DNA of 64,000 nucleotides from a virus (lineage: Duplodnaviria > Heunggongvirae > Uroviricota > Caudoviricetes), in the IMG/VR virus record IMGVR_UViG_3300020577_007233, positions 125,593-189,592 of that record, one strand, 5' to 3'. Under the pieces are notes generated by a model. The model saw only the letters and a program-made list of their open reading frames with translations. It ran no database searches and was not told where the DNA came from. This document shows, one piece after another, positions 20,917 to 64,000 of the stretch. Each line of letters starts with the position of its first letter. Positions within the stretch are counted from its first letter, which is position 1. The translations under genes and the position numbers were made by a program.

Positions 20917-21459
20917 TTAGTCACCTTTTCTGAAATTACCAGTCGAAGAGATTTCAATAGGAATTGGGTTATCAACAGACCCAAGCTCCTCTTCTCTTCT
21001 GCCTCTATTTTTTGCTGCGGCAGTTTTCTCTTGTTTTTCCTGTATCAAGTAATCTCTTTCTGATTCTCCAACAATCACCAATAGGCCGCTTTTCAACGCA
21101 TCAGCAACCGTCTTACACTTATCGAGTATTCCTTCGGGCAAAGACCAAACAGGCAAAAAGTCTCTCGAATTGAAGGTGTACTCTTTTCCGTTATACGCTG
21201 TTATCAAAATGCCTTTTGTGCAGTAAATATAGAACTCCGTGTCAGGGTGGGTTTGATCTCCAATATCTTCATCACTGTAGCTGCTACTGATAACATCAAG
21301 AACGTCCTCTCCTGTTGTCTCAACGGCTGACGTAACATACAAAACATCTTGCCCGGAAAGAATATCTCTAAGCTCTTGAATCTTATGCCAAGGATAAACC
21401 TTAACTGTTTTATCGCAAATCGTAACTGTTTTATTTGATGGATTGACAAGCACTATCAT
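20917..21459 (-). CDS. Hypothetical protein
   Basis: 180-aa ORF with AGGAG RBS, coupled to its neighbours. Confidence 0.6.
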   Translation of the reverse strand: MIVLVNPSNKTVTICDKTVKVYPWHKIQELRDILSGQDVLYVTSAVETTGEDVLDVISSSYSDEDIGDQTHPDTEFYIYCTKGILITAYNGKEYTFNSRDFLPVWSLPEGILDKCKTVADALKSGLLVIVGESERDYLIQEKQEKTAAAKNRGRREEELGSVDNPIPIEISSTGNFRKGD

Positions 21460-49621: not shown

Positions 49622-52600
49622 TCAGCGAGGATACGATTGTGATCTTCGCTCTAAATTCTTTGCTACCTGACCGCCTGGGCCGACTCCGTATGGTTGACCT
49701 GACATAGATCTCCATACTATATCGTTCCCACCTCCAATTACGGGAACTGATACAAGTCTTCCTTGTGGAAGCCTGCTAAGTTCTTTCTCTATGCAATTAT
49801 AGCAAGCCCCTGCAAGAGCGTCACAAAGGTCATCCGTTGTAACGTCTCCGTCTTTTCTTGGGTATACCTTAAATCCGCTATCTAGCCACTTTCTTTGAAG
49901 ATTTAGCATCTCATTCTTCAGTAGGAGATGATTAGGAATAAGCAGTTTGTTTTTGATTGCGATCTGATAAAGGTTGTCGTAGATCAAGTTTTTGTATTGC
50001 TTGCTATAGGGAGTCATTTTTGTAGGAATTCCCTTTTTTCTAAGCTTTGCAATGCTTGTCTGGCTGTTGAAATGGTCATAAGTGACTAATCCAAAGCAGA
50101 ACTTAAAGTTGAGAGAAGCAACATACTCGTCAACCTCATCAACTACAATCGGCTTTCCAGGAGAAGGCGACCAATACTTAATGTGGTCTACGACTATCTT
50201 CCAGTCTTTCTTGTGCTGCTCAAAGTCAAAGAAAACCTCCTTGTGAGCTATAACAAGAGCGTAATTATGGCTTGATGTTGCAGGATCTAAGTGGGCAAAA
50301 TAGGTTATGCCATGAAGCCCAAAATCTCTAAACTTCAAAGACTTATCAGAAAAACAGCTTTCAACGTCTTCTTCCCTAAAGAAGTTCTCGCCAGCAGTTC
50401 CTGAAAACTCGGCAGCAAATTCCATCTGGAACTTTTCTTCGGGCATGTCCGGGAAGGCTGCCATAAGGCCTTCTTTGGTCTGCATAGGATTGACCTGCCA
50501 AGTAGCAGCCCTGCAAACAAGCCTATGAGAGACTTGCTCATGAGAACTGTAAAGGTTGTAGAAGATACCCTCTTTACCTCTTGGCGACGAAAGACAAATA
50601 ATCTTTCCATCATAAATGGTTTCTGTTAGAAGGACACCATTCTCGTCATACAAAAACTTACCGTGTTCATTGAGTCTTGGAACACTTCTAACATACGTTT
50701 TCGTTGCAGGGCCAAGAGAGTTGTAAATAGCATCACCAGAAGAAGAACCTCCGGTATTTTTGTACAAACCAATCTCGTCCAACAAGAGAACATAGCATGA
50801 GATACCTACCAAGCTGTCTGAGTTACTGTGACCTGATCGAACAACAACTGAACCCAAACTTGGGGCAAAGCCTTTAGACCTAAGCTCTTCGTTGTGAATC
50901 TTGTCAGCAGGAGTAAGGAAATGAATTGCATCAGAAGTAATGCCTTCTGGGACAACCTTATCCTTGAAGTAGTCGCTCTTAAGAACCTTGTCTTTGATTT
51001 CTTTGAACAGAATCTGAGCCTGAGCCGCTGCGTTTGCTATGGTTAGTATTGTAAATGGAGTTGCAGAGCCAAGGTTGTAGATCTTGTAAGGATTACCTCC
51101 GGGAACTTCAAGAAGTCTCATTGCTTCGTATAGCGCAATGATAGAAGTAAGGAAGTCTTTACCGCTGTTATGGCAAATCAAGCCATTCGAAACAAAGTTC
51201 TGTAAATGCTCTTTATCTGAAACTTGTATATCGTATGTTCTTTTGATGCCGTTTTTCTTGATCTGAGTGATTGGAGAGAATATGGGAGCATCAAAATCAA
51301 TAGCTATTTCAGAGCTTTCTTTTGCTGTTTTCTGAAACTGCTCATGACCAATAAGCCCAATTTCTTCAACAAAAAGCTTGACATATGAGTTTTTCGAAAT
51401 AGTAAGAACATGCTCTGGTTTTGCGTTTATGAGCTTTGATTGTAGTGTTGCAAAAATTCCAAACCTAGACAGTAGATGCTGAATCTGCCTTGTAAGCAAA
51501 AGACTACTAAATGCTGCTTCTATTTTACAAGTAGTTCTAGACGTTTTTGTGTGCGTTGGAACTCCGTCGCAGCTAAAAATAGCCCTAAGATAGGACGCAA
51601 CAATACTCTTGGGGGAAAGAAAGATTCTTGCAGGAACGAACTTTTGCAAACCACTCTTATTCTTCAGTCCGTTAGCGGTAATCAGAGTTATGATATTAGA
51701 TTCTGTTTCTTCTTTCTTGGATGCCTTTTGAGCAACAACAAAGCTGTACTTTCTTTCATCAAAAGACTTGATGTTGTAGTTCTCTGCGCTGTCAATTTTG
51801 AGATCGTCCGAAATAGCTCCGATTCTCTTTTTGAAATCCTCAAGAACGCTTCCTTCGGCAAGCGTCGTTGCAACGTAGCATCCTGTTGAATCGCACGCTG
51901 CGCTGCTCATATATCCGAGAAAAGCCGCTTCGTCTTCGCAGATTTCTGTTGATGACCCAAAGAACGGCTGAACAGCAGCTATCGCTATTTTGTCCTTTGG
52001 CTTCAAGTCTTTTACTTGCACCCATCCGTTATCAGTCAGCATCGGATGGTTGTCTGTCGCTTCTATTTCGTGCCCAGATGCGGTTTGAATCAAATAAACA
52101 GCCCTCTTGCCTTGGCTTATGAGGTTGCAGTCATTGATGAGATTCATGGTCTTTGTTTTTTCATCGAAAGTCCAAGAATCAAGCTTTAGTTTTCCGTAAT
52201 TCCAAAGTTCACCAAGAGTCCAAATCTTACCAGTTTGAGGATCGACCACTTCTGCGCTTTCAGAAAGACATCTTCTTCCCCAAACAAGAACAAGCTCTCT
52301 AAAGTGGTTTCCTGACTTCCATTTATCAAGCATCGAGCCGTTGTGCGGATCGTTAAGAGCGTATTTTTCCATAAGAGCAAGATCTTCAGGAGTTAGCTCA
52401 ACGTTTTCATTTCCATCGCTTCCTCGATAGAAACACTTCAGCACCAGTTTTTGCATGTCGTATAGATTTGCTGGTGGATTGTTGTGAGGAAGTCCAAGAT
52501 ATTCTGGGCTTTCGACAAACTCTAGAATACTCGGCATTTTACCTATTGCCACAGCATCTGCGTTCATTTTTGAACGTAGCTTATCAAATCCAGACACAAC

Positions 52601-52636
52601 ATTATCAGTGTTCTTTGTTTTCTTATCCTTAGCCAT
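49622..52636 (-). CDS. terL: Terminase large subunit (intein-containing)
   Basis: Walker A VWGRR^SGKD split by an intein. Walker B LLLDEIG, SSPRGKEG coupling motif, RNase H-like HLDPATS, YDHFNS and DDLCDA. Confidence 0.9.
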   Translation of the reverse strand: MAKDKKTKNTDNVVSGFDKLRSKMNADAVAIGKMPSILEFVESPEYLGLPHNNPPANLYDMQKLVLKCFYRGSDGNENVELTPEDLALMEKYALNDPHNGSMLDKWKSGNHFRELVLVWGRRCLSESAEVVDPQTGKIWTLGELWNYGKLKLDSWTFDEKTKTMNLINDCNLISQGKRAVYLIQTASGHEIEATDNHPMLTDNGWVQVKDLKPKDKIAIAAVQPFFGSSTEICEDEAAFLGYMSSAACDSTGCYVATTLAEGSVLEDFKKRIGAISDDLKIDSAENYNIKSFDERKYSFVVAQKASKKEETESNIITLITANGLKNKSGLQKFVPARIFLSPKSIVASYLRAIFSCDGVPTHTKTSRTTCKIEAAFSSLLLTRQIQHLLSRFGIFATLQSKLINAKPEHVLTISKNSYVKLFVEEIGLIGHEQFQKTAKESSEIAIDFDAPIFSPITQIKKNGIKRTYDIQVSDKEHLQNFVSNGLICHNSGKDFLTSIIALYEAMRLLEVPGGNPYKIYNLGSATPFTILTIANAAAQAQILFKEIKDKVLKSDYFKDKVVPEGITSDAIHFLTPADKIHNEELRSKGFAPSLGSVVVRSGHSNSDSLVGISCYVLLLDEIGLYKNTGGSSSGDAIYNSLGPATKTYVRSVPRLNEHGKFLYDENGVLLTETIYDGKIICLSSPRGKEGIFYNLYSSHEQVSHRLVCRAATWQVNPMQTKEGLMAAFPDMPEEKFQMEFAAEFSGTAGENFFREEDVESCFSDKSLKFRDFGLHGITYFAHLDPATSSHNYALVIAHKEVFFDFEQHKKDWKIVVDHIKYWSPSPGKPIVVDEVDEYVASLNFKFCFGLVTYDHFNSQTSIAKLRKKGIPTKMTPYSKQYKNLIYDNLYQIAIKNKLLIPNHLLLKNEMLNLQRKWLDSGFKVYPRKDGDVTTDDLCDALAGACYNCIEKELSRLPQGRLVSVPVIGGGNDIVWRSMSGQPYGVGPGGQVAKNLERRSQSYPR
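51167..52270 (-). mobile_element. Intein (368 aa) with LAGLIDADG-type homing endonuclease domain
   Basis: Starts with CLSESAEV, block B EIEATDNHPML, block E YLRAIFSCDG, ends TYDIQV..NFVSNGLICHN, followed by Ser (+1). Confidence 0.93.
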
Positions 52637-53182: not shown

Positions 53183-53971
53183 TTACAGGTTCTCCCATCC
53201 TATTTTATCCCAAGGAAGCGTTATATCCTTCATTAATAGGCCTATGTCTATCAATCTAGCCCTTGAGTCGCCTATTACTGTTATCGTATATCCAATCTGT
53301 TCAGAAAGAATGGCATAGGTCAAAGGAACCTGCAAAAATTGATCTATAAGGAACTCGTCAAGGTTTTCGTAACCATACGCCTCGCCATATTCTCTAAGAA
53401 CGTGTTCGTTCAAAGCCCTGATAGCATTGTACATTGTCTGCTGGTTATCTAGGTGCTTGAAAATAATGTAAGCATACGTTCTTCTCAAGAAGCTTTCTAG
53501 CTCGGTCTTGTGTCTTTGCCTTGCATTAACATCAGTATTTCGCAGCGTGTTAAACATGCAAATCAAAGGTCCAAGTGATTGCTTTCCAAGATCATAAGCT
53601 TCAGAAATCCTCTCGGTTATTACCCTATAGTCATATGTTCCTATTCTGTGACCGTCATCAGGATTGGGGCCTCTTGTTGGCCTAAAAACAGGCGGAGCAG
53701 GCGGCGCTGGAGGAGTTATCGGAGGAGGAGAAGACGACAATGCATACGTTACCGTAAAGATATCGCTTGGACCCGACTCTTCAAAAGTCTCCAAATCATC
53801 AACAAGATAACGTGTAACTATAGAAACGAAATAGTAATATGTATTACCAAGAGTAACCGTCGTATCAACAAAGGTTGTTGTTGTGCTTGTTCCAACAAGA
53901 GCAAAACTACCAGGAAGCCCAGTAGTTGAGCGATAGATTTTGAATAGATAGAAGTCTCCCGGTGTTGACAT
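53183..53971 (-). CDS. Protein beginning with FN3 strands C-G, then a Pro linker and a helical domain
   Basis: MSTPGDFYLFKIYRS...FVDTTVTLGNTYYYFVSIV. GGAG RBS lies inside the upstream gene's final codons. Confidence 0.75.
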   Translation of the reverse strand: MSTPGDFYLFKIYRSTTGLPGSFALVGTSTTTTFVDTTVTLGNTYYYFVSIVTRYLVDDLETFEESGPSDIFTVTYALSSSPPPITPPAPPAPPVFRPTRGPNPDDGHRIGTYDYRVITERISEAYDLGKQSLGPLICMFNTLRNTDVNARQRHKTELESFLRRTYAYIIFKHLDNQQTMYNAIRALNEHVLREYGEAYGYENLDEFLIDQFLQVPLTYAILSEQIGYTITVIGDSRARLIDIGLLMKDITLPWDKIGWENL

Positions 53972-56900
53972 TTACGAACTCCAAGTTATGCTTATGTTTC
54001 TTTCGTTATAGTTTGCTGCTGCTGCTATGTTTGTTGGAGGATTCAGTGTTGGATCGTCGGCTACAAAGGTAACAGCAATAACACTTGACTTTGCAGATTC
54101 ATTACCAAATACATCAACCGCTGACACCTGGTAGTAGTAAGTCTTTCCAATCCTAACAGCAGTATCATAGAAGAATGCGTCCTTGGAGTATTTCTTCCTT
54201 TGGAAGTTTGCTGGATTTGGATCAACAACTTGGTTTGTTATCTTTGACTTGTAAACGATATAGTGACTAAAATCTGGCTCCTGGTTTGGACTCCACGTAA
54301 GCTTGATGTACATTCTTGTTGCAGTAGTATATGTTGTACTTCTAACGTTACTGTAAAATCCGTAGTTCAGATTGGTCGGTGTTGCGGGGGCCTCGGTTGG
54401 AGTATAATCATTTGGAACTTCAACGTAATCGAATCTCCTATCGACAGCTTCATAGTCACTAGAAGACGCATTAAGTCCCACATACTGCGATGGACTGTAA
54501 ACTCCCGAAACATAGCCATATTCAGCAAATAGCTTAAGTCGATACGCTTCTTCTTCGCTTGTTGGGTACTCGTCTGTTCTTGTTGGGCCATAGTCAACAA
54601 GCCAATGCTCGTTTCCAGGAACTAGGTAATTTGCAAGATCGTGCGGAGAATACGCTCCTTGATCGCTAAACAAGAAAGAAGCCATCCTTGATAAGAAAAT
54701 ATCGGGCCTTGCTTTTTCTCCCATAAGGTGAGCGTTGGGATATCTTTCCATGTAAACATCTAACAAATCAAGAGAGTTCTTAACTTGCATCTCGTTTGTT
54801 GATGCTCCAAAGAAATCAAGACCTACACCTCCGGCCCAGTAAACATCGAAAACAATATCCATTTCGTCGTAAAACTTCTGCATCAAGGCAGAGTCGGTAA
54901 AGTCTATAGTTCCATACGTTGACGTTGGACCATATGCAACAGAACTCGTAAGAGCCAAGTCTCCGTAACCTTGATAGAAAATGAACGTGGGGATTTCTTC
55001 TCCGAGTCTATTGAATTCGCTTATCGTGGCAAGCATGTTCGGATAACTTGTCCAAGGCGATTGGTTTCTATAGATAGGCGTAACTATTTGAGGGTAATAG
55101 TTCAGTCCGCCCGTATTCTGTCCAAGAGTGTCCCAAACCATGTACCTTTCATAGCCTTTGTTGAAAACATTGGTTATGACAGCGGCTCTGTATATCGCAT
55201 ATCCAGTGCTAGTTATTTGATAGGACGCATTCAACTGAAGAGGCGTTGATCCGTCAAAGTTTGAATTCAGATTTTCAAGGTAAACAGGTCTTGGGTCTTT
55301 AGAAAGCAATGTTGGGAAGTTGGCTTGTAGATAATCCCTGAGAGGCTTAGTTGTTAGAACCCACCTAGATGGATCTCTTGATATTCTAACGGAAACAGTA
55401 ACAGAAAATGACTCTCCTCTCTGTAAGCAGTGGTTGTTAAATGTATTGTTTATCCACTCAAGAGATGTCTTGCCTCTGCCAATTAGATACGAAGACGCAT
55501 CTGAACGCCCTGAAGTTTTCTCTTGAATGAATTTGTCGTTGTTAACAAAATCTGCGATGACGCACACTGTTATAGCGTGAGTATCGGTAAGGTATGTGGT
55601 AACGGGAGCAAATCTGTTAGTTGGATATGTTAGGGCGTTATTTGTTGTGGTATACGCCTTTGAGACATGCATCGCTGAACTGTCAATGAAAAAACTGTTC
55701 TGATTGTACATTAGGGAGTTATTTCTTCCCAAAAAGACATAATCAAGATCTATAGAGCCAAGCCTTTGAGCAGCAGATCCTACTGTTTGAGCTATTGGAC
55801 CATCGTTGGTGTAAACAATCGTAATATCAATACCATCAGTGGTATCAGCGGTTGTGATTGTTGTTTTTATGTAGTCACCAACATTGTTCAAAAGATTTAG
55901 ATAGCCAGAACCAACATCTATGGTTCTCGCTCCATAAGACTGTCCAATCAGCCTCTTGTTCGAAAAAAGATCCGAGTCGTCTTGATGCAGTATGTTTGGA
56001 TCATAAACTTCAAGATACAAATTGTGAGAATCATTCGGAGTTGCGTTTGCGTTTGTTGGTCTATTCCTGGCAATAGAAGTCGCAACAGCAATTACAGAGT
56101 CTTCGCTTGCTGAGTTTGGGAAAAGAGTCAAATGAGGAACGGCCCTAGTTGCGCCAACCGACCAGTCAGCAGAAGCTGTTCTTATTGCTTTGGCATAGTC
56201 TTGATTTACATAAGGAACGGTTGTCGCATATGCAATTAGGTTTGGGTACTTTTCCGAGTCATATGCAAACTTTCTTTCAACAAAAGTATCTCCGATTTCA
56301 ACATTGTAAAACTGATCATTAGCACCAACGGTCGTTAGTAACCAGCTCTCATTATCAATAGGCGACCCGTCAACGTGAGCAAAACGAACTCCAGAATCGA
56401 ATTCAGGAAACACGTTATTTGATGTGTTTGTAAAAATAAGCTCGTTGTCGTATTTGACAAACCTACACATTACACCTATTCTGTTTGAAACAAACAGATT
56501 GTTAACGAACTCGTAACCACTACAAGCAGAACCTTGCTCCGTAAAATCCCAAACTCCTATCAACGAAGAAACATTTGACCACAAAACCGTTGTATTGTTT
56601 GCCGCTTTTACGGCGTTTTTTACTCCAATCGTGGAGTTTGAGCAAAATACATTTCCCATCAAGTTGTTGTATCTAAGTTCTAATACGTTGTTAACTATTG
56701 TTAGTCCGTCAATGTCTCCGCTAAGAGTTATTATCCCATACTGAGAACTCATAACTGGTGAAGCCACAGAAACCTTCTGTCCTCCGCCCGCTCCTGTCAT
56801 GTAATTGCCATCAAGCCTAATGCTTGTTGATTTTTCAAAAATGTTGCATCCTTTGGAAAGAATACTTGAAATGACAAACACATTTGAGGATGCGTATGTT

Positions 56901-58267
56901 TTGATTGCTCCTCCATTATGAAGGGTTGATGTTGCGTAAAGAAATCCATAATTGCTTGAGTCGTTGTAGTTCGTAGAGCTACTAACTGCTGCGTCTAGGT
57001 AGCACCATTGTATAGTCGCCATATCAGCCCCATCAGACTCTCCTAGGTAAATCAAAGGAGAATTGGGATCGTATATTGTCGAAAGATCAAAGTTTCCAAT
57101 ATCAACGCCTGAAACAACAATGTTTGTTCCGCTAAGATTGAAAACCGAATATCTGCTAACGTAGCCAGTAGTTCCGCCTCCTCCGATAATCATTCTGTTT
57201 AGGTAGATACACTCAGATGCTAGAGAAATTGAGTAAATTCCATGATAACAACCTATGAAACCGCAATTGTGAAGAGCAATATTTGACGCATCTTCAATCT
57301 GTATTGCATAAACATTGCTTGAGGAGGTTGGAGTTGCAGAGCTTTCTGTTGTATTGTAATCTGTACGAACGCCTTGGAACGTTATGTGTTCAAAGTAAAT
57401 GTTCTTAGTACCTGAGTTTATGCTTATCATTGGGATAGGAGAGCCTGGGCTAGCAAGAGCGCCCGAAGTCGCCGGCATAATCTTGAAAACTCTTTGGTAG
57501 TTATTATCATTAACCGTAAAAACAAGATTGTTCACGGTAATGTTGAGCGTATTTGCTATCTTGGCTAGGTACTGTCCAGATGCGTTGTTCAAAACGATGC
57601 GAACTCTTCCGTTTACTCCTCCAAGAGAAGCCGTAGAACGGAAGTTGTTTACCCATGTCATTGCGTTCTCAAGAGAGCTAAAGTTCTTGGATGCACCTGT
57701 TGCTGGGTTGTCAGAAAAAGATGGGTTTACGCTAATAGTAACCCACGAATTGGCGCTGTTTACGGCGTGTCCAGAGTTATTGATTTCAGCCGTTGTCCAT
57801 GATGTATAAATCGTTGGCGCGGTTACTGCTATGGTCGTTGTCGTTGAAGAACTTTCAACGCCGTTATGTATAATCGTCAAAGTTATCGTAAATGGAGTTC
57901 CACCGTTATCGTGGTAGTAGGTATATGCAGCGTTCAGTCCTTGTTGTTCAGAATTTGAATCGCCGCTTCTGTGACAAAAGCCTGTGTTATCAACTCCGCA
58001 ATCAATAGTTGGTATAGGGAATCTCGTCTTGCTTTTGAAGTTGCCCTGAACAAGGGTTGTATTTGTTAGTGCTGTTCCTAGTGACTCGTACCTGTTGTTG
58101 TCTTGATTTCCGTTTACGCTTGGCGTTGGATCTCCAAAGTCCCAAACGAATACACAATCTTGACTAGATTCTCCGTCAAAGTTTGAAGCAGCAGCATTGA
58201 CATGAACCGTAAAAGGCGCAAATCCTGAGTTGTCCGAAGTGACTGTTATTACTGGTACGATTGCCAT
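53972..58267 (-). CDS. Large spike/depolymerase-like protein: PKD - right-handed beta-helix - beta-sandwich/GH-like module - FN3 - half FN3
   Basis: APFTVHV...FVWDFGD...YTY (PKD). IYFEHITFQG, NIALHNCGFIG (beta-helix). IKLTWSPNQEPDFSHYIVYKS...TYYYQVSAVDVFGNES (FN3). Start moved to ATG 58267. Confidence 0.7.
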   Translation of the reverse strand: MAIVPVITVTSDNSGFAPFTVHVNAAASNFDGESSQDCVFVWDFGDPTPSVNGNQDNNRYESLGTALTNTTLVQGNFKSKTRFPIPTIDCGVDNTGFCHRSGDSNSEQQGLNAAYTYYHDNGGTPFTITLTIIHNGVESSSTTTTIAVTAPTIYTSWTTAEINNSGHAVNSANSWVTISVNPSFSDNPATGASKNFSSLENAMTWVNNFRSTASLGGVNGRVRIVLNNASGQYLAKIANTLNITVNNLVFTVNDNNYQRVFKIMPATSGALASPGSPIPMISINSGTKNIYFEHITFQGVRTDYNTTESSATPTSSSNVYAIQIEDASNIALHNCGFIGCYHGIYSISLASECIYLNRMIIGGGGTTGYVSRYSVFNLSGTNIVVSGVDIGNFDLSTIYDPNSPLIYLGESDGADMATIQWCYLDAAVSSSTNYNDSSNYGFLYATSTLHNGGAIKTYASSNVFVISSILSKGCNIFEKSTSIRLDGNYMTGAGGGQKVSVASPVMSSQYGIITLSGDIDGLTIVNNVLELRYNNLMGNVFCSNSTIGVKNAVKAANNTTVLWSNVSSLIGVWDFTEQGSACSGYEFVNNLFVSNRIGVMCRFVKYDNELIFTNTSNNVFPEFDSGVRFAHVDGSPIDNESWLLTTVGANDQFYNVEIGDTFVERKFAYDSEKYPNLIAYATTVPYVNQDYAKAIRTASADWSVGATRAVPHLTLFPNSASEDSVIAVATSIARNRPTNANATPNDSHNLYLEVYDPNILHQDDSDLFSNKRLIGQSYGARTIDVGSGYLNLLNNVGDYIKTTITTADTTDGIDITIVYTNDGPIAQTVGSAAQRLGSIDLDYVFLGRNNSLMYNQNSFFIDSSAMHVSKAYTTTNNALTYPTNRFAPVTTYLTDTHAITVCVIADFVNNDKFIQEKTSGRSDASSYLIGRGKTSLEWINNTFNNHCLQRGESFSVTVSVRISRDPSRWVLTTKPLRDYLQANFPTLLSKDPRPVYLENLNSNFDGSTPLQLNASYQITSTGYAIYRAAVITNVFNKGYERYMVWDTLGQNTGGLNYYPQIVTPIYRNQSPWTSYPNMLATISEFNRLGEEIPTFIFYQGYGDLALTSSVAYGPTSTYGTIDFTDSALMQKFYDEMDIVFDVYWAGGVGLDFFGASTNEMQVKNSLDLLDVYMERYPNAHLMGEKARPDIFLSRMASFLFSDQGAYSPHDLANYLVPGNEHWLVDYGPTRTDEYPTSEEEAYRLKLFAEYGYVSGVYSPSQYVGLNASSSDYEAVDRRFDYVEVPNDYTPTEAPATPTNLNYGFYSNVRSTTYTTATRMYIKLTWSPNQEPDFSHYIVYKSKITNQVVDPNPANFQRKKYSKDAFFYDTAVRIGKTYYYQVSAVDVFGNESAKSSVIAVTFVADDPTLNPPTNIAAAANYNERNISITWSS

Positions 58268-58279
58268 AGGTTGTCTCAA

Positions 58280-60298
58280 TTAACGAAAAACGATTCTCCT
58301 AAAGTATCTCCAAGCAAATTCTTGAAGATCATCTTTTTGTCTTATCCTAAACCAATAGAACTCGCCTCTCTCAAGAAGTTCGGTGTTTAAGCTTGTGTAA
58401 CGAACCTTTCGTCCTTCATAGTTACTTGTTATACCATTTCCGTTGAAAGGCCTGAAATCCCCATTGTAATCCTCAAAGGACCAATTGGTGATATCACTAA
58501 ACGTATCCTTTGATAGTATCGGCCCTATCCCTTCAAAATCCTCATAGTTACGAGCAACTTGAAGTTCTATATGATAGAACCTAAAATCACCTGGGTTTTG
58601 CTCAAGGTAGTCCTCAAATATCCACGAACCCTCTGTTTCTATGTTTGAACTAACTATGGAAGAAACAAGAGTCTCATTCTGTAAAGTATCAAGAACGATA
58701 TCCGATACCTTTGTTGATGTTGCCGTTAGATACTGATTAAAGTTTGGGTATGCAAAGTCAAACCGAGTGGCATTTCTGTCAACAACAAAATCAATGAACT
58801 TTGTTGTCAAATTGACAAAATCATTCTTCCAGGATAGATCGTCAAACTCTGAGTACAACGCATCAAATGCGTAGTCAAGCTCTTCTTGAACAACTTCATC
58901 AGATCCGCTAACAATGGTATCTCTTAGATCTTTAATGATGTTTGACTTCCTAAATAGATAACAGACAGATTCGGCATAGCACGTTTCCATCATCTTCCAT
59001 GCTTTTACCGGATCTATCAACTGAGATTCTTCAAATGGAACAGGAAATGCAAAAACCGCAAGTAGGTCGCCAAAACAAGCCATACTCGAATTGAGTAAAG
59101 GTTGCGAGTACACAAAGGCCTCTCCGAGAGAGGCTCCTCTAAAAAGGGTATCCATAAAGGGAACAGGCCTTAGAAAAGAAGAAGTATCAACACCGGACAT
59201 GCTTCCGGCAGCAGCAACATACCCCTCCCTTATTGCCAAAATAGGCCATGAACGAGCGTCAAGGTCTCTTATTGTCAGTCCGCCATCAAAGTCTGCGTTA
59301 TAGAAGAAGGCTCTTGTATTTGCCGTTGTTCTGAAGTAGGAAAGAGAACCCCTATCGGCTCCCCAGCCCCAAAAGAACGAGTCGTCTTCTATCTGAGAGA
59401 AAAAAGCATCCCTTCCAGCCGGTGGACGAGAAGTGCCTTGAATAGTTAGCCCCAGTCTTGATGAGTAGTTATCTTTGAAGTCAATAAGCTCATCTGTGTA
59501 TTCTGAAGCTCCCGAATAGGTGTAGGAAGCGTATGGGTCAAAATAGAACTTACCCGTTGTCTCTAGTCTGCTTTTTGCGGCTTCAATATTGTCAAACCAG
59601 ACAGAAGTAACTATACTTGGACCATCAATCCTAGTACATATGAGAGACTGTATGGCGTCATAACCGTTGAACCTTTGAAAAACCTGTCTATTGTATATTG
59701 GGTTTTGAATGTTCTTCTCAAATGGATAGAAGATCCTAGCCAAACGAGAAGTTGTTGATATGACATCTGAACCGTCCCTAAAGCCGCCTGGAACGTAAGG
59801 CATAAGGACTATGCCATAAACGCTTCTGTTTCGAACAGGAGCGGATGTTATTTTTTGGCGCAGTGGATCTTCTACCTCTGCTTGAAAGGCTATGTAGTCG
59901 GTCAATACTTCAATGTTCGAACAAGGAATCGAAACTAATTGGTCATCATCAAGGTCATGCAGTTCTTGATACCGCAATGCGAGAGACAGGCTCTCGGAGT
60001 CGTCTTGACGGTAAACGCAGATAATGTTGTCCTTTGAAAGTATCGCTGTAGGATTTGCAATCGTCTGTTGATTGTCCCCCGTCGCTCCCTGGGTCGAAAA
60101 AAAAACACAGGTGTCTGAGCTTGGAGAAGACCTATTACCGAAAATGTCAACAGTTACTATTTGATAGCAATATGTGTGACCGATTTCGGCAGACGTATCG
60201 TTAAAATCATTTGTAGTAGAAGTACCAACCAGAACGAAAGCTTCGTTGTTGTCGCTTCTGTATATCTCGTAATATGCAAAATCTGAAGGCAAGGCCAT
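58280..60298 (-). CDS. TIGR03790-like protein with N-terminal FN3 strands C-G
   Basis: IICVY..DD.ES..LA..YQ, IVLM..VP, TRIDGP, FYFD, FWGWG, G..AAAG...V...FL.P..F...L..G.SLGEA......L.S.M..FGD. AGGAG RBS. Confidence 0.7.
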   Translation of the reverse strand: MALPSDFAYYEIYRSDNNEAFVLVGTSTTNDFNDTSAEIGHTYCYQIVTVDIFGNRSSPSSDTCVFFSTQGATGDNQQTIANPTAILSKDNIICVYRQDDSESLSLALRYQELHDLDDDQLVSIPCSNIEVLTDYIAFQAEVEDPLRQKITSAPVRNRSVYGIVLMPYVPGGFRDGSDVISTTSRLARIFYPFEKNIQNPIYNRQVFQRFNGYDAIQSLICTRIDGPSIVTSVWFDNIEAAKSRLETTGKFYFDPYASYTYSGASEYTDELIDFKDNYSSRLGLTIQGTSRPPAGRDAFFSQIEDDSFFWGWGADRGSLSYFRTTANTRAFFYNADFDGGLTIRDLDARSWPILAIREGYVAAAGSMSGVDTSSFLRPVPFMDTLFRGASLGEAFVYSQPLLNSSMACFGDLLAVFAFPVPFEESQLIDPVKAWKMMETCYAESVCYLFRKSNIIKDLRDTIVSGSDEVVQEELDYAFDALYSEFDDLSWKNDFVNLTTKFIDFVVDRNATRFDFAYPNFNQYLTATSTKVSDIVLDTLQNETLVSSIVSSNIETEGSWIFEDYLEQNPGDFRFYHIELQVARNYEDFEGIGPILSKDTFSDITNWSFEDYNGDFRPFNGNGITSNYEGRKVRYTSLNTELLERGEFYWFRIRQKDDLQEFAWRYFRRIVFR

Positions 60299-60311: not shown

Positions 60312-61121
60312 TTATACTACATAACCTGCTTCTTGCAAGTTTGAAAGGGCAATGTAAAGCTTATCGAAGAGTCTGTTTCTTTGCGTTCCTGACAATCCGG
60401 AAGTTTGACCCAAGAATACACCAACCTGCGGAACGTTGTACTTATTGTATACTCGGAACATATTCATGAAGTGTTCTTTGTCGTAAATAAGACTTGATCT
60501 AAATCCTGTTGGGAACTTAATGTTGTTTCTCTCAAAGATATTGTCATAGATTATAGGATAATCCAAGTAGGTCATCCAGAACGCTATTGGCTTATTCGGA
60601 TTTGCGGCTTGACATCCTTTGCAGAAATATTCCGTATTCGCAACATCTATGGCTCTAATAAGAGCATTTGGGTCTTTGATACTGTCTGCGCTTACTCCGT
60701 ATCTGTAAAGAGATTCTGCGTAGCTATTGTAGCCGTTTCCTACAGCAAATGAGTTGCCGTCAGTAGGATACCATCCATATTGAACCGGGATCTGAACATC
60801 AAGATGGAAGTTCGCATTCAAATCAACAGGCGATTCCTTGAAGCGATAGCCATGAACAAGATTCTGTCTGTTTGCGCAGAAAGTGTTATAGTTGCCAACA
60901 ACAACATTAGGCCAAACCGCTTTTGCGGGAATACCTACAGTGTCCCAAATTCCATAGTCAACAACCATAGAATTGATTGTTTGAGTCAAAAAGGCTCTCT
61001 TAACGCTTGTGCTATCGCTGCCGTAAATATGAGAATAAAGTTGGTTGGTAGGAATTGTAACCCCATCCAATGGTTGGCAGGAATTGCAACTCCATCCAGA
61101 TCGGTTAAGCCGGAGACCCAC
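60312..61121 (-). CDS. C-terminal continuation (+frameshift) of the 60986-64000 protein
   Basis: No RBS. Becomes protein-like exactly at the 29-nt duplication (PLDGVTIPTN). Confidence 0.65.
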   Translation of the reverse strand: MGLRLNRSGWSCNSCQPLDGVTIPTNQLYSHIYGSDSTSVKRAFLTQTINSMVVDYGIWDTVGIPAKAVWPNVVVGNYNTFCANRQNLVHGYRFKESPVDLNANFHLDVQIPVQYGWYPTDGNSFAVGNGYNSYAESLYRYGVSADSIKDPNALIRAIDVANTEYFCKGCQAANPNKPIAFWMTYLDYPIIYDNIFERNNIKFPTGFRSSLIYDKEHFMNMFRVYNKYNVPQVGVFLGQTSGLSGTQRNRLFDKLYIALSNLQEAGYVV

Positions 61122-64000
61122 TGAGCATATGTTTGAACTCCATCAAAAGTTGTTGTAGAGTATCTTGGATCGGCAGTGAGCCATCCATGCCACTGTAGCC
61201 TGTTATTGAAGTCTCCTCCCGCAAGCGTTGCTCCGCCTTCATAGTCTGGATCGACATATACAGGATCAGGGATGCCTCTAGCTCTAAGAAGAGAAGAAAG
61301 AGTTGCAAAGAACGTTTGCATTCTTGATTTCGCTTCCGCTCTTCCGTTTACCGTCCACAAGCAACTATTGCCATTGGAAAGCCTGTCGTTGATATGAGCA
61401 AAAGGACGAGTTGTTGAACTGCCCCAACCATAGGCTCCAAAGTTCTGAGGCCAAAAGGCATACCTAAATGGAGTGTTTGGTCTGTTCGTGACCCAGTAAT
61501 TCCTGTATGCTGTAATAGTGTCAGCAGCGGTTGTTGCTCTTTGTTCCATAGTCCTTGCGTCTGTATCTGAGAAGCAAATAACATCGTTGATCATTGGATA
61601 AACGTTTGCTAGGTCAAACACTGGATGAGCAAAGTCTGTGCTTGTCCAACCGCCGCCAGTCTGCAATATAACCTTTGGAGGACTCTTGAGCGAAGGAGAT
61701 GGAAGATAAGACGCAGAAGGTTCTCCCCAAGCCACAACAATTTTACCCTCGACAACAGAAGATGTTGCGGAAACATTTGTTGGGGGATTGAGAATAGGAT
61801 TGTCAGCTATGAACGTTACTTCATAGGGGGTTGGAGCAGAAGAATTGCCGTCAACGTCAACCGCTACAATCTTGTAGTAATACGTTTCTCCTGGGAAAAC
61901 CTGATTGTCATTAAAGAACGAAGTCTTGACATATGACTTGAGTTGATATGGTCTAGAAAGATCAACTTGACCGTTTACTATGGTTCCTTTGTATACAAGG
62001 TAGTGACTAAAATCTGATTCAGTATTACTATCCCAAGACAAAGCTATTGTCTGCTTTTTAAGGTCGGGATACTTGACGCTTACAGCCCTGTCTGTTATAG
62101 CGTGACGAATGTTGGTTGGAGAAGAAAGAGGACCGTATGAGGCGGGCTTTGTGTCATAAACAAATCTTCTGTCTGCGGCAAGATAAATTGAAGAAGTTAC
62201 TGGATAAACGTTGACGTTAGAGTTAATGTCTCCGTCAAGATCAACATGACCAACAACATAGCCCCACCTTGCGTGCGCTGCCATTCTATTCTTAACGTAC
62301 CAGTGAGTATAGGTTCCGTATGGGAACTGAGTCCTATATTCATTCATGTAAATGATTACGATATTTTCATTTCCTGGCAATATGTAGTCGGCGATATAGT
62401 GCGGACTTGTTGGATTTGTTGAAACGCCATTACCAGACATGATGTATCCGGCTGAATGAGTGCAAGCTATATCATCAGGCGAAACTTCTGTTATGATTCT
62501 GGTTCCTTGGAATTGAGTATCTATGAAAGTTAGGAACTTAGAAGTGTGGTTCTGAGAATCAAGGCCTGCTGAATATGCGTCAATTCCAAGAAGATTAGAC
62601 TTGGCATGATAGTTTATGAGATTCCACTCGTCAATAGCCATATCAAAAGCTATTGGGTCTCCTTGGTTCATGTATGTAGAGGCTTTTGAAATGTCCTTAT
62701 AGTCAGGATTCCATCTCTTGTGAACAATGCTACCGTATCCTTGGTAAAAGCCAAAGATAGGAACTTCTTGAATAATGTCTCTAATCATGTAGAACGTGCC
62801 CTGGAAAAGCTGAGGGTTGATTGTAAAGTTTCCAGGAATGCATGAGCTAACAAAGCTATAGCATGCATCATAATGCGGTCCCACAGAAGAATGAGGGAAT
62901 TCTCCATCACTGTCCACTAGCGGAGAAATCATAAAGAATGGGTAGTTATTGATGTTGTTGTTTGCGTACAAACCAGAGGTTGCCCAAATCAATTGCCTAT
63001 CATAACCAAGAGAATTATAGTTGTATCTTATCTTGTTTGCCCACCAAGCCCATCCATATAGGGCGGGATTTTGATTTGCCGTATCTTCGTAACCATGAAG
63101 ACCAAAAGGCTGTCCATTACTAAGGATTGCCGGAACCATTGGCTTAATTGGTCTTGGGTCTTTCATGAATTTGACAGAACCAAAGTTCTGAGCAAAGTAT
63201 GTCTTGTATGGTTCAAGAGTAAGAACCCACTTTCTTGGATCTCTTGTTATTCTAACACAGAACGTAGCTTGATATGTCTGACCGCTTGCTAAGCAATCTG
63301 CATTCGCCACTGAAATGTCGTCTGCCTGAACATCTGAACCCCATTTCCATCTATTGATGGCGCAGGTGTTCCAAGCGCCAGTAATTTCTGTTAGATGCTT
63401 ATGCGTAGCAATTTGATCGTACTTAACGGACACGCCCATACCATACGTTGATCCAACCAGATTAACTGTTGGGCTGAACTTGTCAAACGGATAATTAAAT
63501 CCCCCTCCAAAGAACAATGAGAAATATGTATCAATTTCTACTGATGAAGAGTCGTGCATGTTGTAGACATAGGCAAACTTAGGACCAATCAACAAGCCGT
63601 CTATATAAACGCTTCCGAGTCTCTGTCTTGGATCTCCGTCTACTTGTCCGCTTGGACCATCGTTGGTGTAGGTTACTGTTACATCATAACCGTCTGGTCT
63701 GTTTGTTACGGAATATGAGGAGTTGATATAGTTGCCATAGTTGACCGTAAGATCGTAATAACTAACTGCCCAACGATTGCTTCCTGAAGTAGTGCCGGTT
63801 GCATTGATATTCGATGTTGGTAGAGAACCGAAGCCCTGAACAACAAAGCCGGCTAGTCCCAAAGTGTTTCTACCATAACTCTGTATGGCGTTAGCAAGAT
63901 CGGAAACAGTAGAGTACGAGGAAAGAGGAATATCTATGAGAGTTTGAACGGTATCATTCTGTAAAGTAAAGACTCCTCTAAACTTCTTGTTTCCGCTATC
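60986..64000 (-). CDS. Spike-like protein, 5'-truncated by the window: beta-sandwich/GH-like module - FN3 - half FN3 - second GH-like domain
   Basis: Frame is open to position 64000 (DSGNKKFRGVFTLQ...). Colinear homology to the C-terminal half of 53972-58267. Confidence 0.7.
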   Translation of the reverse strand, partial: DSGNKKFRGVFTLQNDTVQTLIDIPLSSYSTVSDLANAIQSYGRNTLGLAGFVVQGFGSLPTSNINATGTTSGSNRWAVSYYDLTVNYGNYINSSYSVTNRPDGYDVTVTYTNDGPSGQVDGDPRQRLGSVYIDGLLIGPKFAYVYNMHDSSSVEIDTYFSLFFGGGFNYPFDKFSPTVNLVGSTYGMGVSVKYDQIATHKHLTEITGAWNTCAINRWKWGSDVQADDISVANADCLASGQTYQATFCVRITRDPRKWVLTLEPYKTYFAQNFGSVKFMKDPRPIKPMVPAILSNGQPFGLHGYEDTANQNPALYGWAWWANKIRYNYNSLGYDRQLIWATSGLYANNNINNYPFFMISPLVDSDGEFPHSSVGPHYDACYSFVSSCIPGNFTINPQLFQGTFYMIRDIIQEVPIFGFYQGYGSIVHKRWNPDYKDISKASTYMNQGDPIAFDMAIDEWNLINYHAKSNLLGIDAYSAGLDSQNHTSKFLTFIDTQFQGTRIITEVSPDDIACTHSAGYIMSGNGVSTNPTSPHYIADYILPGNENIVIIYMNEYRTQFPYGTYTHWYVKNRMAAHARWGYVVGHVDLDGDINSNVNVYPVTSSIYLAADRRFVYDTKPASYGPLSSPTNIRHAITDRAVSVKYPDLKKQTIALSWDSNTESDFSHYLVYKGTIVNGQVDLSRPYQLKSYVKTSFFNDNQVFPGETYYYKIVAVDVDGNSSAPTPYEVTFIADNPILNPPTNVSATSSVVEGKIVVAWGEPSASYLPSPSLKSPPKVILQTGGGWTSTDFAHPVFDLANVYPMINDVICFSDTDARTMEQRATTAADTITAYRNYWVTNRPNTPFRYAFWPQNFGAYGWGSSTTRPFAHINDRLSNGNSCLWTVNGRAEAKSRMQTFFATLSSLLRARGIPDPVYVDPDYEGGATLAGGDFNNRLQWHGWLTADPRYSTTTFDGVQTYAQWVSGLTDLDGVAIPANHWMGLQFLPTNFILIFTAAIAQALREPF
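61043..61100. repeat. Imperfect 29-nt tandem duplication causing a frameshift
   Basis: ggttggtaggaattgtaaccccatcca(at) versus ggttggcaggaattgcaactccatcca(ga): 3 mismatches in 27 nt. Confidence 0.85.

What the first reader, a model, noticed from the sequence alone, without database searches (positions are those of the whole stretch)
53750..54045. FN3 domain split across two separately translated genes (TAA-ATG junction): candidate inter-protein beta-strand clip
Seen: the 1431-aa spike ends with a complete FN3, then only strands A-B of a second FN3 (NPPTNIAAAANYNERNISITWSS*). The next codon, in frame, is the ATG of a gene that begins with strands C-G (MSTPGDFYLFKIYRS..FVDT..GNTYYYFVSIV). The join matches the intact FN3 just upstream (W-SPNQEP-DFSHYIVYKS). 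The Trp-Ser codons TGG AGT supply a GGAG RBS 7 nt before the ATG, so the second half has its own translation signal. The same split recurs at 60298/61716-61789. Established: FN3 has strands A,B,C,C',E,F,G with Trp in B, and engineered FN3 fragments can re-associate in vitro. Inference: the phage uses a natively split FN3 as a non-covalent connector that docks partner proteins onto spike proteins, analogous to donor-strand complementation. Alternatives are TAA readthrough or a recent nonsense mutation.
Basis: partly seen in the sequence, partly recalled or inferred. Interest (0 to 1): 0.82.

Follow-up and report, generated by a model that had tools for sequence, protein, structure and literature searches.

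The report
FN3 domain split between phage genes
In this very large uncultured phage and its relatives, one small fibronectin-type domain is encoded in two pieces on neighbouring genes, and the pieces most likely snap together to fasten sugar-cutting spike proteins onto conserved phage proteins, a joint seen so far in only one crystal structure.

Summary
The 1431/1435-aa spike-like protein ends two residues after the strand-B Trp of a second FN3 (…NISITWSS, TAA). The next codon is the ATG of a 262-aa protein that begins at strand C.

It is not an error, a recent nonsense mutation or a read-through site. The same cut in the B-C loop occurs in more than 12 related contigs from independent metagenomes. 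Stop codons (TAA, TGA), spacers (1-nt overlap to 16 nt) and frames all differ. Both halves are under purifying selection (dN/dS 0.17-0.29, synonymous sites near saturation).

Three unrelated donor types end in the hairpin: beta-helix spikes, a GH56-like enzyme and a 47-aa peptide. Three different acceptor cores start with the C-G half. Relatives without spikes lack the half-domain. One relative has the domain fused and intact.

The best reading is a plug-and-socket joint made by fold complementation. Binding was not shown: the co-fold gave only weak support. Some acceptors have no adjacent donor.

A verified precedent exists: the Tuc2009 BppU hairpin completes BppA domain 2 (PMC4742702). This scan has also noted the same B-C-loop split on other phage DNA. 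I therefore class it as a new variant of a known kind.

The parts
53972..58279 (-). Spike B (P0001). The ORF opens at TTG 58279; the likely start is ATG 58267 (1431 aa). It is a spike-like protein whose C-terminal ~670 aa are paralogous to spike A. It is the donor of the A-B hairpin.
   Evidence: tblastn of P0004 residues 144-810 hits 55885-53981 at 30% identity. A homologue in L063 has a weak Pfam Beta_helix hit.
54077..54385 (-). Complete FN3 number 1 of spike B.
   Evidence: HMM hit covering model positions 2-103; alignments.
53975..54046 (-). Strands A-B of FN3 number 2. This is the C-terminal beta-hairpin ending ...ISITW-SS, with the invariant Trp at 53981-53983.
   Evidence: Alignment A5 of 14 hairpins has P13 and W31 invariant.
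53972..53974 (-). TAA stop of spike B, directly followed by the ATG of P0002.
   Evidence: TAA ends 29 of 36 long ORFs, and zero-gap TAA-ATG also occurs at 20917.
53979..53982 (-). GGAG Shine-Dalgarno-like motif 7 nt upstream of the P0002 ATG.
   Evidence: GGAG occurs at a similar distance in L005, L020 and L063 but not in L022, L070 or L071.
53183..53971 (-). P0002 (262 aa). Acceptor protein made of an FN3 C-G half, a Pro-rich linker and a conserved helical core.
   Evidence: AF2 model m4761ceeb01e5. Homologues of the core are stand-alone proteins of about 150 aa.
53753..53968 (-). Strands C-G of FN3 number 2 (P0002 residues 2-73).
   Evidence: HMM positions 35-104. Residues 10-53 hit internal FN3 repeats of hundreds of proteins. 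dN/dS is 0.29 against L005.
53672..53740 (-). Pro-rich linker (P0002 residues about 78-100), predicted disordered.
   Evidence: pLDDT is below 50 for residues 80-85 and 93-101.
53186..53671 (-). Conserved helical-bundle core of P0002. It occurs without any FN3 half in relatives that lack spike B.
   Evidence: P0006 is 168 aa. L012, L018 and L019 carry 154-161-aa forms. Helices 112-225 have pLDDT about 90. There is no significant fold match.
58280..60298 (-). P0003 (672 aa). Second acceptor: an FN3 C-G half (60116-60289) followed by a TIGR03790-like core.
   Evidence: TIGR03790 E 4.2e-12, below the curated cut-off. 14 of 56 homologue clusters start with the half and about 40 lack it.
61727..61789 (-). 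A-B hairpin of spike A (…NPPTNVSATSSVVEGKIVVAW). It is internal and is followed by a C-terminal domain.
   Evidence: The hairpin profile hits it at E 4.8e-17.
60312..61726 (-). C-terminal domain of spike A, inserted between the two FN3 halves. In this window its frame is broken by a 29-nt tandem duplication at 61042-61098.
   Evidence: The domain is uninterrupted in L007, L015 and L073. The tblastn frame change lies at 61064-61070. TRF result.

Best explanation
This is a natively split FN3 domain used as a non-covalent plug-and-socket joint.

The donor protein is a large spike-like or glycosidase-like protein. It ends in a two-strand hairpin of about 21 residues (strands A-B, closing with the core Trp), or in spike A carries that hairpin internally. 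The acceptor protein begins 2-7 residues before strand C and carries the five remaining strands. Behind that half it has a linker and a conserved core: a TIGR03790-like core in P0003 and a helical bundle in P0002.

The two genes are translated separately, and the tight junctions probably couple their translation. After translation the hairpin pairs with strand E and covers the exposed core of the C-G half. This completes one FN3 and ties the spike to the conserved protein.

Shown: the split, its conservation, purifying selection on both halves, and the co-occurrence of donor and acceptor. Inferred: the physical complementation, that the core proteins are virion or appendage components, and that the purpose is to mount spikes.
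For: 1. FN3 identity runs across the break.

2. The cut lies in the same loop in many lineages, but the junctions differ:
- window: TAA then ATG, in frame
- L005, L006, L020: TAA, one nt, TTG
- L063: TGA, one nt, ATG
- L070: TAATG overlap
- L019: TAA, 16 nt, ATG
- L022: TAA, 7 nt, ATG
- L071: TAA AAA ATG
- spike A type: about 430 aa of extra domain, a stop, then 9-15 nt before the ATG
. No single recoding mechanism fits all of these.

3. Selection. dN/dS is 0.29 for the C-G half and 0.19 for the hairpin (window against L005), and 0.17 for the hairpin (L005 against L020). pS is 0.35-0.72. The Trp is invariant in 14 hairpins.

4. Donors without the extra domain stop 0-4 residues after that Trp.

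5. Co-occurrence for P0003-like proteins. In 11 distinct loci with the half, a donor lies immediately upstream. One such locus (L062) has no adjacent donor. Four loci without the half (L012, L018, L023, L072) have dUTPase upstream and no donor.

6. Portability. The donors are unrelated: a spike, a GH56-like protein of 503 aa (Pfam E 1.3e-5; no BLAST similarity to P0001) and a 47-aa peptide. The acceptor cores also differ.

7. Natural control. L069 encodes the same FN3 intact in one protein, while its sister contig L071 has it cut.

8. No long fused forms of the P0002 core appear among 1.84 billion representatives.

9. Co-fold: weak support. The score was 0.57 and the best of 3 controls 0.00. 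The mark was reached by 58 of 80 solved complexes and 2 of 110 mismatched pairs. At 0.60 or under it was reached by only 7 of those 80 solved complexes and by both mismatches that passed. The runs agree in at least 69% of contacts, and the partner's pLDDT is at least 73. Halves of a known fold may pass by likeness to solved FN3 structures.

10. Solved precedent in Tuc2009.
Against: No binding was measured. The co-fold pass is weak and may reflect the model's memory of intact FN3 domains.

Some acceptor halves have no adjacent donor: L062 (directly after dUTPase), the P0002-like protein of L011, P0028 in L023/24 and L041.

In the 333-kb relative G005 there are three acceptor halves, two of them in tandem in one protein, but only two hairpins were detected in a record that is 66% complete. 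In L064 a 92-aa ORF that is only a C-G half sits between donor and acceptor.

These cases fit a half-domain that can exist without a neighbouring hairpin. The function and location of both core proteins are unknown. No virion proteome is available and there is no cultured relative.
Confidence: 0.68

Rival explanations
1. Scar of a gene fission or cassette insertion, with no pairing. The C-G module folds or oligomerises on its own, for example by packing two exposed faces together. The A-B hairpin is a leftover tail or linker of the spike.
For: Some acceptors have no adjacent donor (L062, L011, L023/24, L041). There are tandem C-G halves with no A-B between them (L013 / P0161) and a stand-alone 92-aa half (L064). 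AF2 models the half alone at pLDDT about 85-90, although AF2 does this for fragments in general.
Against: The hairpin is kept under purifying selection with an invariant core Trp. It ends 0-4 residues after that Trp in unrelated donor proteins. Loss of A-B would leave strand E alone on one sheet and the core open (established FN3 topology). Phage genomes delete useless sequence quickly. Donor and acceptor co-occur.
Confidence: 0.17
2. Recoding: stop-codon read-through in the window, or frameshifting in relatives, joins the two ORFs into one long protein with an ordinary FN3.
For: In the window and in L071 the two ORFs are in frame across a single TAA.
Against: Relatives need +1 (L005, L020, L063), an overlap (L070), or 7- and 16-nt spacers with further stops (L022, L019). 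Spike A types have a 430-aa domain and a stop in between. TAA is the genome's normal stop, ending 29 of 36 long ORFs. Each acceptor has its own start codon, and several have GGAG or AGGAG upstream.
Confidence: 0.04
3. Recent nonsense mutation, pseudogene or assembly error specific to this contig.
For: The neighbouring spike A gene in this window does carry a frame-breaking 29-nt duplication, so the record is not free of lesions.
Against: The same cut is found in independent assemblies from many samples (IMG/VR, JGI, Logan, ENA) at 46-76% protein identity, with saturated synonymous sites.
Confidence: 0.02

Closest known systems
Lactococcus phage Tuc2009 baseplate tripod: BppU C-terminal hairpin with BppA domain 2 (PDB 5E7T; PMC4742702)
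   Same: A 25-residue C-terminal beta-hairpin of one phage tail protein completes a beta-sheet of an incomplete beta-sandwich in a second protein. The composite domain resembles a titin domain. The size of the plug (two strands) and the role (fastening an accessory carbohydrate-binding protein) match.
   Different: There is no detectable sequence relation. In Tuc2009 the socket is at the C-terminus of BppA rather than at the N-terminus directly across the gene junction. The host is Gram-positive and the phage a small siphophage. Here the phages are uncultured and 250-500 kb, the cargo is enzymatic spikes, and the cores are TIGR03790-like or helical. The authors did not describe it as a split FN3 or as a general module.
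Donor-strand complementation in chaperone-usher pili (Fim, Pap)
   Same: An incomplete Ig-like fold is completed by strands from another polypeptide, giving a very stable non-covalent link (established knowledge).
   Different: In pili one C-terminal G strand is missing and is donated by an N-terminal extension, with a periplasmic chaperone and an usher. Here two N-terminal strands (A-B) are missing and are donated by a C-terminal or internal hairpin. No chaperone or usher genes are present.
Obscurin-like-1 : myomesin trans-complementation (PDB 5FM5; PMC5222588)
   Same: An incomplete Ig-like domain assimilates a segment of another protein, giving mechanical stability of about 135 pN. 5FM5 is among the fold matches of the joined model.
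   Different: It is a eukaryotic sarcomere complex in which a single interdomain strand is assimilated, and it is not a gene-junction split.
Engineered FN3 fragment complementation (Dutta, Batori, Koide & Koide, Protein Sci 2005, as listed in the references of PMC11666773)
   Same: It shows that FN3 fragments can reassociate with high affinity. I saw the title only; the paper is not held.
   Different: It is artificial. I could not check where the cut was made.
Ig-like or FN3 domains added in cis by programmed frameshift or read-through (e.g. SPP1 gp17.1*; from my own knowledge and from earlier scan notes)
   Same: An FN3 or Ig-like module at a gene end in phage structural genes.
   Different: Those cases make one fused chain through a conserved slippery site. 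Here frames and spacers vary and no such site is conserved.

Membership tests
FN3 fold (fibronectin type III beta-sandwich) | A seven-strand sandwich (A-B-E / C-C'-F-G) with Trp in strand B and the Tyr-rich C and F strands, recognisable by sequence or structure comparison. | tested here: met
   phmmer to 3MPC across the break, E 0.0026. Acceptor profile to 3MPC residues 34-80, E 3e-6. AF2 pLDDT 90.3. Foldseek top hits are all FN3, TM up to 0.76.
Pfam fn3 (PF00041) and related Pfam FN3 models | A score above Pfam's gathering threshold. | tested here: not met
   No fn3 hit even at E up to 10 on the joined sequence or on either half. There is only a sub-threshold GH85_C hit on P0003 residues 6-60, matching profile positions 28-87 of 95.
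Tuc2009 BppU/BppA-type composite domain | The donor ends in a beta-hairpin of about 25 residues. | tested here: met
   The hairpin forms strands 12-19 and 24-30 in the model. Donors stop 0-4 residues after the Trp.
Tuc2009 BppU/BppA-type composite domain | The acceptor is a beta-sandwich that lacks exactly those two strands. | tested here: met
   Acceptors start 2-7 residues before strand C in 12 or more sequences. The profile aligns from residue 34 of 3MPC.
Tuc2009 BppU/BppA-type composite domain | The two chains are seen or measured to form one domain. | tested here: inconclusive
   Co-fold: weak support. Score 0.57, best of 3 controls 0.00. The mark was reached by 58 of 80 solved complexes and 2 of 110 mismatched pairs, but at 0.60 or under by only 7 of those 80 and by both mismatches that passed. 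No experiment is possible with these tools.
Tuc2009 BppU/BppA-type composite domain | Sequence homology to BppU or BppA. | tested here: not met
   No 5E7T chain appears among PDB sequence hits at E up to 10.
Chaperone-usher donor-strand complementation | A missing C-terminal G strand, an N-terminal donor extension, and chaperone and usher genes. | tested here: not met
   The missing strands are the N-terminal A-B pair. The neighbouring genes are spikes, a tail-fibre-like protein and terminase.
Programmed read-through or frameshift extension | A conserved frame relation or slippery site at the junction. | tested here: not met
   Junction frames are 0, +1 and -1, spacers run from a 1-nt overlap to 16 nt, and both TAA and TGA are used.
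TIGR03790 family (core of P0003) | A score above the NCBIfam cut-off of 67 bits. | tested here: not met
   46.2 bits, E 4.2e-12, residues 90-402 over model positions 1-314 of 316. It is related, but below the curated cut-off.

The most novel reading that the evidence does not exclude
The split FN3 is a portable tag-and-socket system of these huge phages. Any protein ending in the A-B hairpin can be mounted on any protein that starts with a C-G half, including partners encoded far away in the genome. Acceptors with no adjacent donor, tandem sockets and the free 92-aa half would then be parts of a combinatorial docking network. Such a network would let spikes be swapped, added or competed for without changing the conserved core proteins, and would be a natural counterpart of engineered tag/catcher pairs.
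Probability: 0.25. Interest if true: 0.8.

Novelty: new variant of a known kind. Interest (0 to 1): 0.62.

Why it matters
If the halves do pair, this would be a small, genetically portable protein-protein connector that evolution has reused on unrelated cargo proteins and anchors. It would explain how very large phages add or exchange host-recognition enzymes without fusing them to core proteins. It would give annotators a simple rule: an ORF ending just after the strand-B Trp, followed by an ORF starting at strand C, predicts a physical complex. It would also offer a natural two-piece FN3 scaffold for protein engineering. Earlier notes of this scan report the same cut in phages of Gram-positive bacteria and in a crAss-like phage, and the Tuc2009 structure shows one such joint. 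Together with the present case, this suggests a widespread but essentially undescribed assembly principle.

Tried and rejected
- GenBank phages: no DNA match, and no protein match for P0002 or P0003. There is no cultured relative and no annotation.
- Pfam, PHROGs and NCBIfam on P0001, P0002 and P0004 gave nothing.
- Fold searches of the P0002 model in BFVD and PDB matched only the FN3 half weakly and found nothing for the helical core. The Atlas feature search found nothing for the P0002 core and gave only leads (TIGR03790, a low share of Peptidase_C25) for the P0003 core.
I could therefore check neither raw-read support for the TAA nor expression.
- The 467-kb ENA scaffold behind L062 is not held, so I could not search it for a distant donor. 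The Dutta et al. 2005 paper is not held.
- A donor-first survey with the FN3 number 1 plus hairpin profile returned only loci already known. Donors were therefore mostly found through their acceptors, which is an ascertainment bias.
- I considered selection for AGY Ser codons to create GGAG and dropped the idea, because the intact FN3 number 1 also uses TGG AGT.
- Literature searches for a described natural split FN3 in phages found nothing beyond Tuc2009.
- I did not test cognate against swapped donor/acceptor pairs, because only one co-fold job was available.
Full report
**Setting**

The window is bases 125593-189592 of a 256.8-kb IMG/VR virus record that CheckV rates 51% complete. Related contigs reach 333-498 kb, so this is an uncultured group of very large phages. 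Nearly all genes lie on the minus strand and are tightly packed. TAA ends 29 of 36 long ORFs, TGA ends 7 and TAG none. Zero-gap TAA-ATG junctions also occur elsewhere in the window. GenBank phages hold nothing similar.

**Observation**

The minus strand reads ...TGG AGT TCG TAA ATG TCA.... P0001 (53972-58279) ends ...NPPTNIAAAANYNERNISITWSS. P0002 (53183-53971) begins MSTPGDFYLFKIYRS.

- Read through the stop, the sequence aligns across the break with the solved Fn3-like protein 3MPC (E 0.0026).
- It also aligns end to end with intact FN3 domains of unrelated proteins, with the break in the B-C loop.
- A profile of 12 acceptor N-termini matches 3MPC only from residue 34 onward (E 3e-6).
- P0002 residues 10-53 hit internal FN3 repeats of hundreds of large proteins.
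- AF2 folds the read-through segment at pLDDT 90.3 as a sandwich with two strands before the break and the rest after it. Foldseek returns only FN3 domains, with TM up to 0.76.

Pfam's own FN3 models do not score, so this is a divergent FN3.

The second case is real too. Spike A carries an A-B hairpin at 61727-61789 and then runs on into another domain. P0003 (58280-60298) starts MALPSDFAYYEIYRS.

**Relatives**

The cut is conserved but the junctions are not:

| Locus | Donor end | Junction | Acceptor start |
|---|---|---|---|
| L005 / L006 / L020 | ISWSP or ISWSS | TAA, one nt, TTG | LPGDFSHYNIYRS |
| L063 | beta-helix protein, ...SLTLTWS | TGA, one nt, ATG | MPNDIDYYKIYR |
| L070 | 667-aa protein, ...SLTWTN | TAATG overlap | MAQPPNFSHYVIYRS |
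| L019 | spike A, ...RIRIAWN | TAA, 16 nt, ATG | MPTPSDFAYYEIYRS |
| L022 | 503-aa GH56-like protein, ...VRINW | TAA, 7 nt, ATG | MGVNYYEIWR |

- The L022 donor is GH56 hyaluronidase-like (Pfam E 1.3e-5) and has no BLAST similarity to P0001.
- In L007, L015, L011, L013, L020 and L073 the spike A hairpin is followed by an uninterrupted domain of about 430 aa, a stop and 9-15 nt before the acceptor's ATG.
- Donors without that domain stop 0-4 residues after the strand-B Trp. The Trp is invariant in 14 hairpins.
- L069 encodes the same FN3 intact in one 711-aa protein (...ILITWSAISNIDHYDIYRA...). Its sister contig L071 has the first 47 aa as a separate ORF ending ...VVITWS, then TAA AAA ATG and MAISYYEIWR. 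This is a natural fused/split pair.

**Selection and age**

Between the window and L005, dN/dS is 0.29 for the C-G half and 0.19 for the hairpin, with pS of 0.60-0.72. Between L005 and L020 the hairpin gives 0.17. Both halves are therefore translated and constrained, and the split predates synonymous saturation. This rules out a recent nonsense mutation or an assembly error. The varied frames, spacers and stop codons rule out a common read-through or frameshift mechanism.

**Co-occurrence**

Among 56 clusters of P0003 homologues:
- 14 start 2-7 residues before strand C;
- about 40 have no FN3 at all (585-600 aa);
- one has two tandem C-G halves;
- one has a complete FN3.

Where DNA context was available, 11 distinct loci with the half have a hairpin donor immediately upstream, and one (L062) does not. 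Four loci without the half (L012, L018, L023, L072) have dUTPase upstream and no donor. A naive Fisher test gives about 0.003, but the loci are related to each other, so I use this only as a rough guide.

The core of P0002 is a stand-alone protein of about 150 aa in most relatives. No long fused form appears among 1.84 billion representatives. In the 98%-complete 494-kb relative there is one donor and one acceptor, and in this genome two of each.

**How it arose (inference)**

Spike B is a paralogue of the C-terminal half of spike A (30% identity). Relatives of the L007 type lack spike B, and their P0002 homologue has no FN3 half. The simplest history is that a block was duplicated and fused in frame, through a Pro-rich linker, to the front of the P0002 core gene. 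That block would run from the spike and its hairpin across the junction to the C-G half. The tag and its socket would thus have moved together.

In spike A types, a P-S-[D/E]-F motif of the B-C loop appears both after the Trp and at the acceptor start. This suggests that the extra domain, together with its stop and the next start, was inserted into a once-continuous loop.

**Mechanism**

FN3 topology puts A, B and E on one sheet. A C-G fragment therefore has an open core, which a two-strand hairpin bearing the core Trp can close.

The co-fold of P0001 residues 1300-1435 with P0002 residues 1-95 gave weak support:
- The score was 0.57 and the best of 3 controls 0.00.
- The mark was reached by 58 of 80 solved complexes and 2 of 110 mismatched pairs. 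At 0.60 or under it was reached by only 7 of those 80 and by both mismatches that passed.
- The runs agree in at least 69% of contacts, and the partner's pLDDT is at least 73.

Halves of a known fold can pass from memory, so I count this only lightly.

The P0002 model shows the half-domain, a disordered linker (residues 80-101) and a helical bundle. The helical core has no fold match. The P0003 core is TIGR03790-like but scores below the curated cut-off. The next gene resembles tail-fibre proteins (PHROG E 7e-10), and the one after it is the large terminase with an intein. That the cores are appendage or virion parts is an inference.

**What does not fit neatly**

- Four acceptors have no adjacent donor: L062, the P0002-like protein of L011, L023/24 and L041. 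In L041 the half sits on a different 288-aa core, after a fibre-like protein.
- The 333-kb relative has three acceptor halves but only two detected hairpins, in a record that is 66% complete.
- L064 has a free 92-aa half between donor and acceptor.

Either donors are encoded elsewhere, or the half can exist unpaired.

**Comparison with what is known**

BppU residues 296-321 form a hairpin that completes a beta-sheet of BppA domain 2, and the composite resembles a titin domain (PMC4742702). That is the same physical principle, solved once. It shows no sequence relation to the proteins here and has a different layout.

[quoted passage not shown] My literature searches found no description of a natural split FN3 as a phage connector.

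This scan has noted the same B-C-loop split on other DNA: Lactobacillaceae prophages, Staphylococcus phages, a Streptomyces phage and a crAss-like phage. I did not test those notes.

**Verdict**

I class the finding as a new variant of a known kind. The new points are:
- the host group (huge uncultured phages);
- the range of junction forms, including an internal hairpin followed by an inserted domain;
- the natural fused/split pair;
- unrelated cargo proteins and anchors;
- tandem sockets and acceptors with no adjacent donor.

Binding still has to be shown.

Noticed in passing
window 61042-61098: A 29-nt imperfect tandem duplication (2 copies, 89% match) breaks the frame of spike A inside its C-terminal domain. 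The domain is uninterrupted in L007, L015 and L073. It could be a real lesion, a phase switch or collapsed alleles.
   Followed up: partly
window 49622-52636 (-): The large terminase (PHROG hits) is interrupted by an intein with a LAGLIDADG endonuclease. Relatives carry one or two inteins in the same gene (L063, L070, L072).
   Followed up: partly
whole window: TAG ends none of the 36 ORFs of 150 aa or more (TAA 29, TGA 7). I did not test whether TAG is merely avoided or has another meaning.
   Followed up: no
L013 5001-7244 (P0161, 747 aa): The P0003 homologue carries two tandem C-G half-FN3 modules, each starting ...TDFAYYEI[FY]R, with no A-B strands between them. Only two hairpins were detected in that 333-kb record.
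   Followed up: partly
L064 3717-3995: A 92-aa ORF consists only of a C-G half plus a short basic tail. It overlaps the donor's stop (ATGA) and sits 5 nt before the normal acceptor. It may be a spare socket, a competitor or a decaying duplicate.
   Followed up: no
L069 518-2653 and L071 236-2362: Sister contigs from two runs of one study show the same FN3 intact in one protein (L069) and cut into a 47-aa ORF plus the acceptor (L071).
   Followed up: partly
L041 2501-3370: A C-G half heads a 288-aa protein with a core unrelated to P0002 or P0003. It lies just after a repeat-rich fibre-like protein that ends ...SWYILSKYIP and has no A-B hairpin.
   Followed up: no
window 61700-61730 and 60280-60298; L015 and L013 equivalents: In spike A types, the B-C loop motif P-S-[D/E]-F appears both right after the donor's Trp (W-E-P-P-S-S-E-F) and at the acceptor's start (M-A-I-P-S-D-F). 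This looks like a short duplication flanking the inserted C-terminal domain.
   Followed up: no
window 58280-60298 (-), residues 90-402: The P0003 core is TIGR03790-like (E 4e-12, below the cut-off). This family of unknown function is conserved just after dUTPase and before the terminase in this whole phage group.
   Followed up: partly
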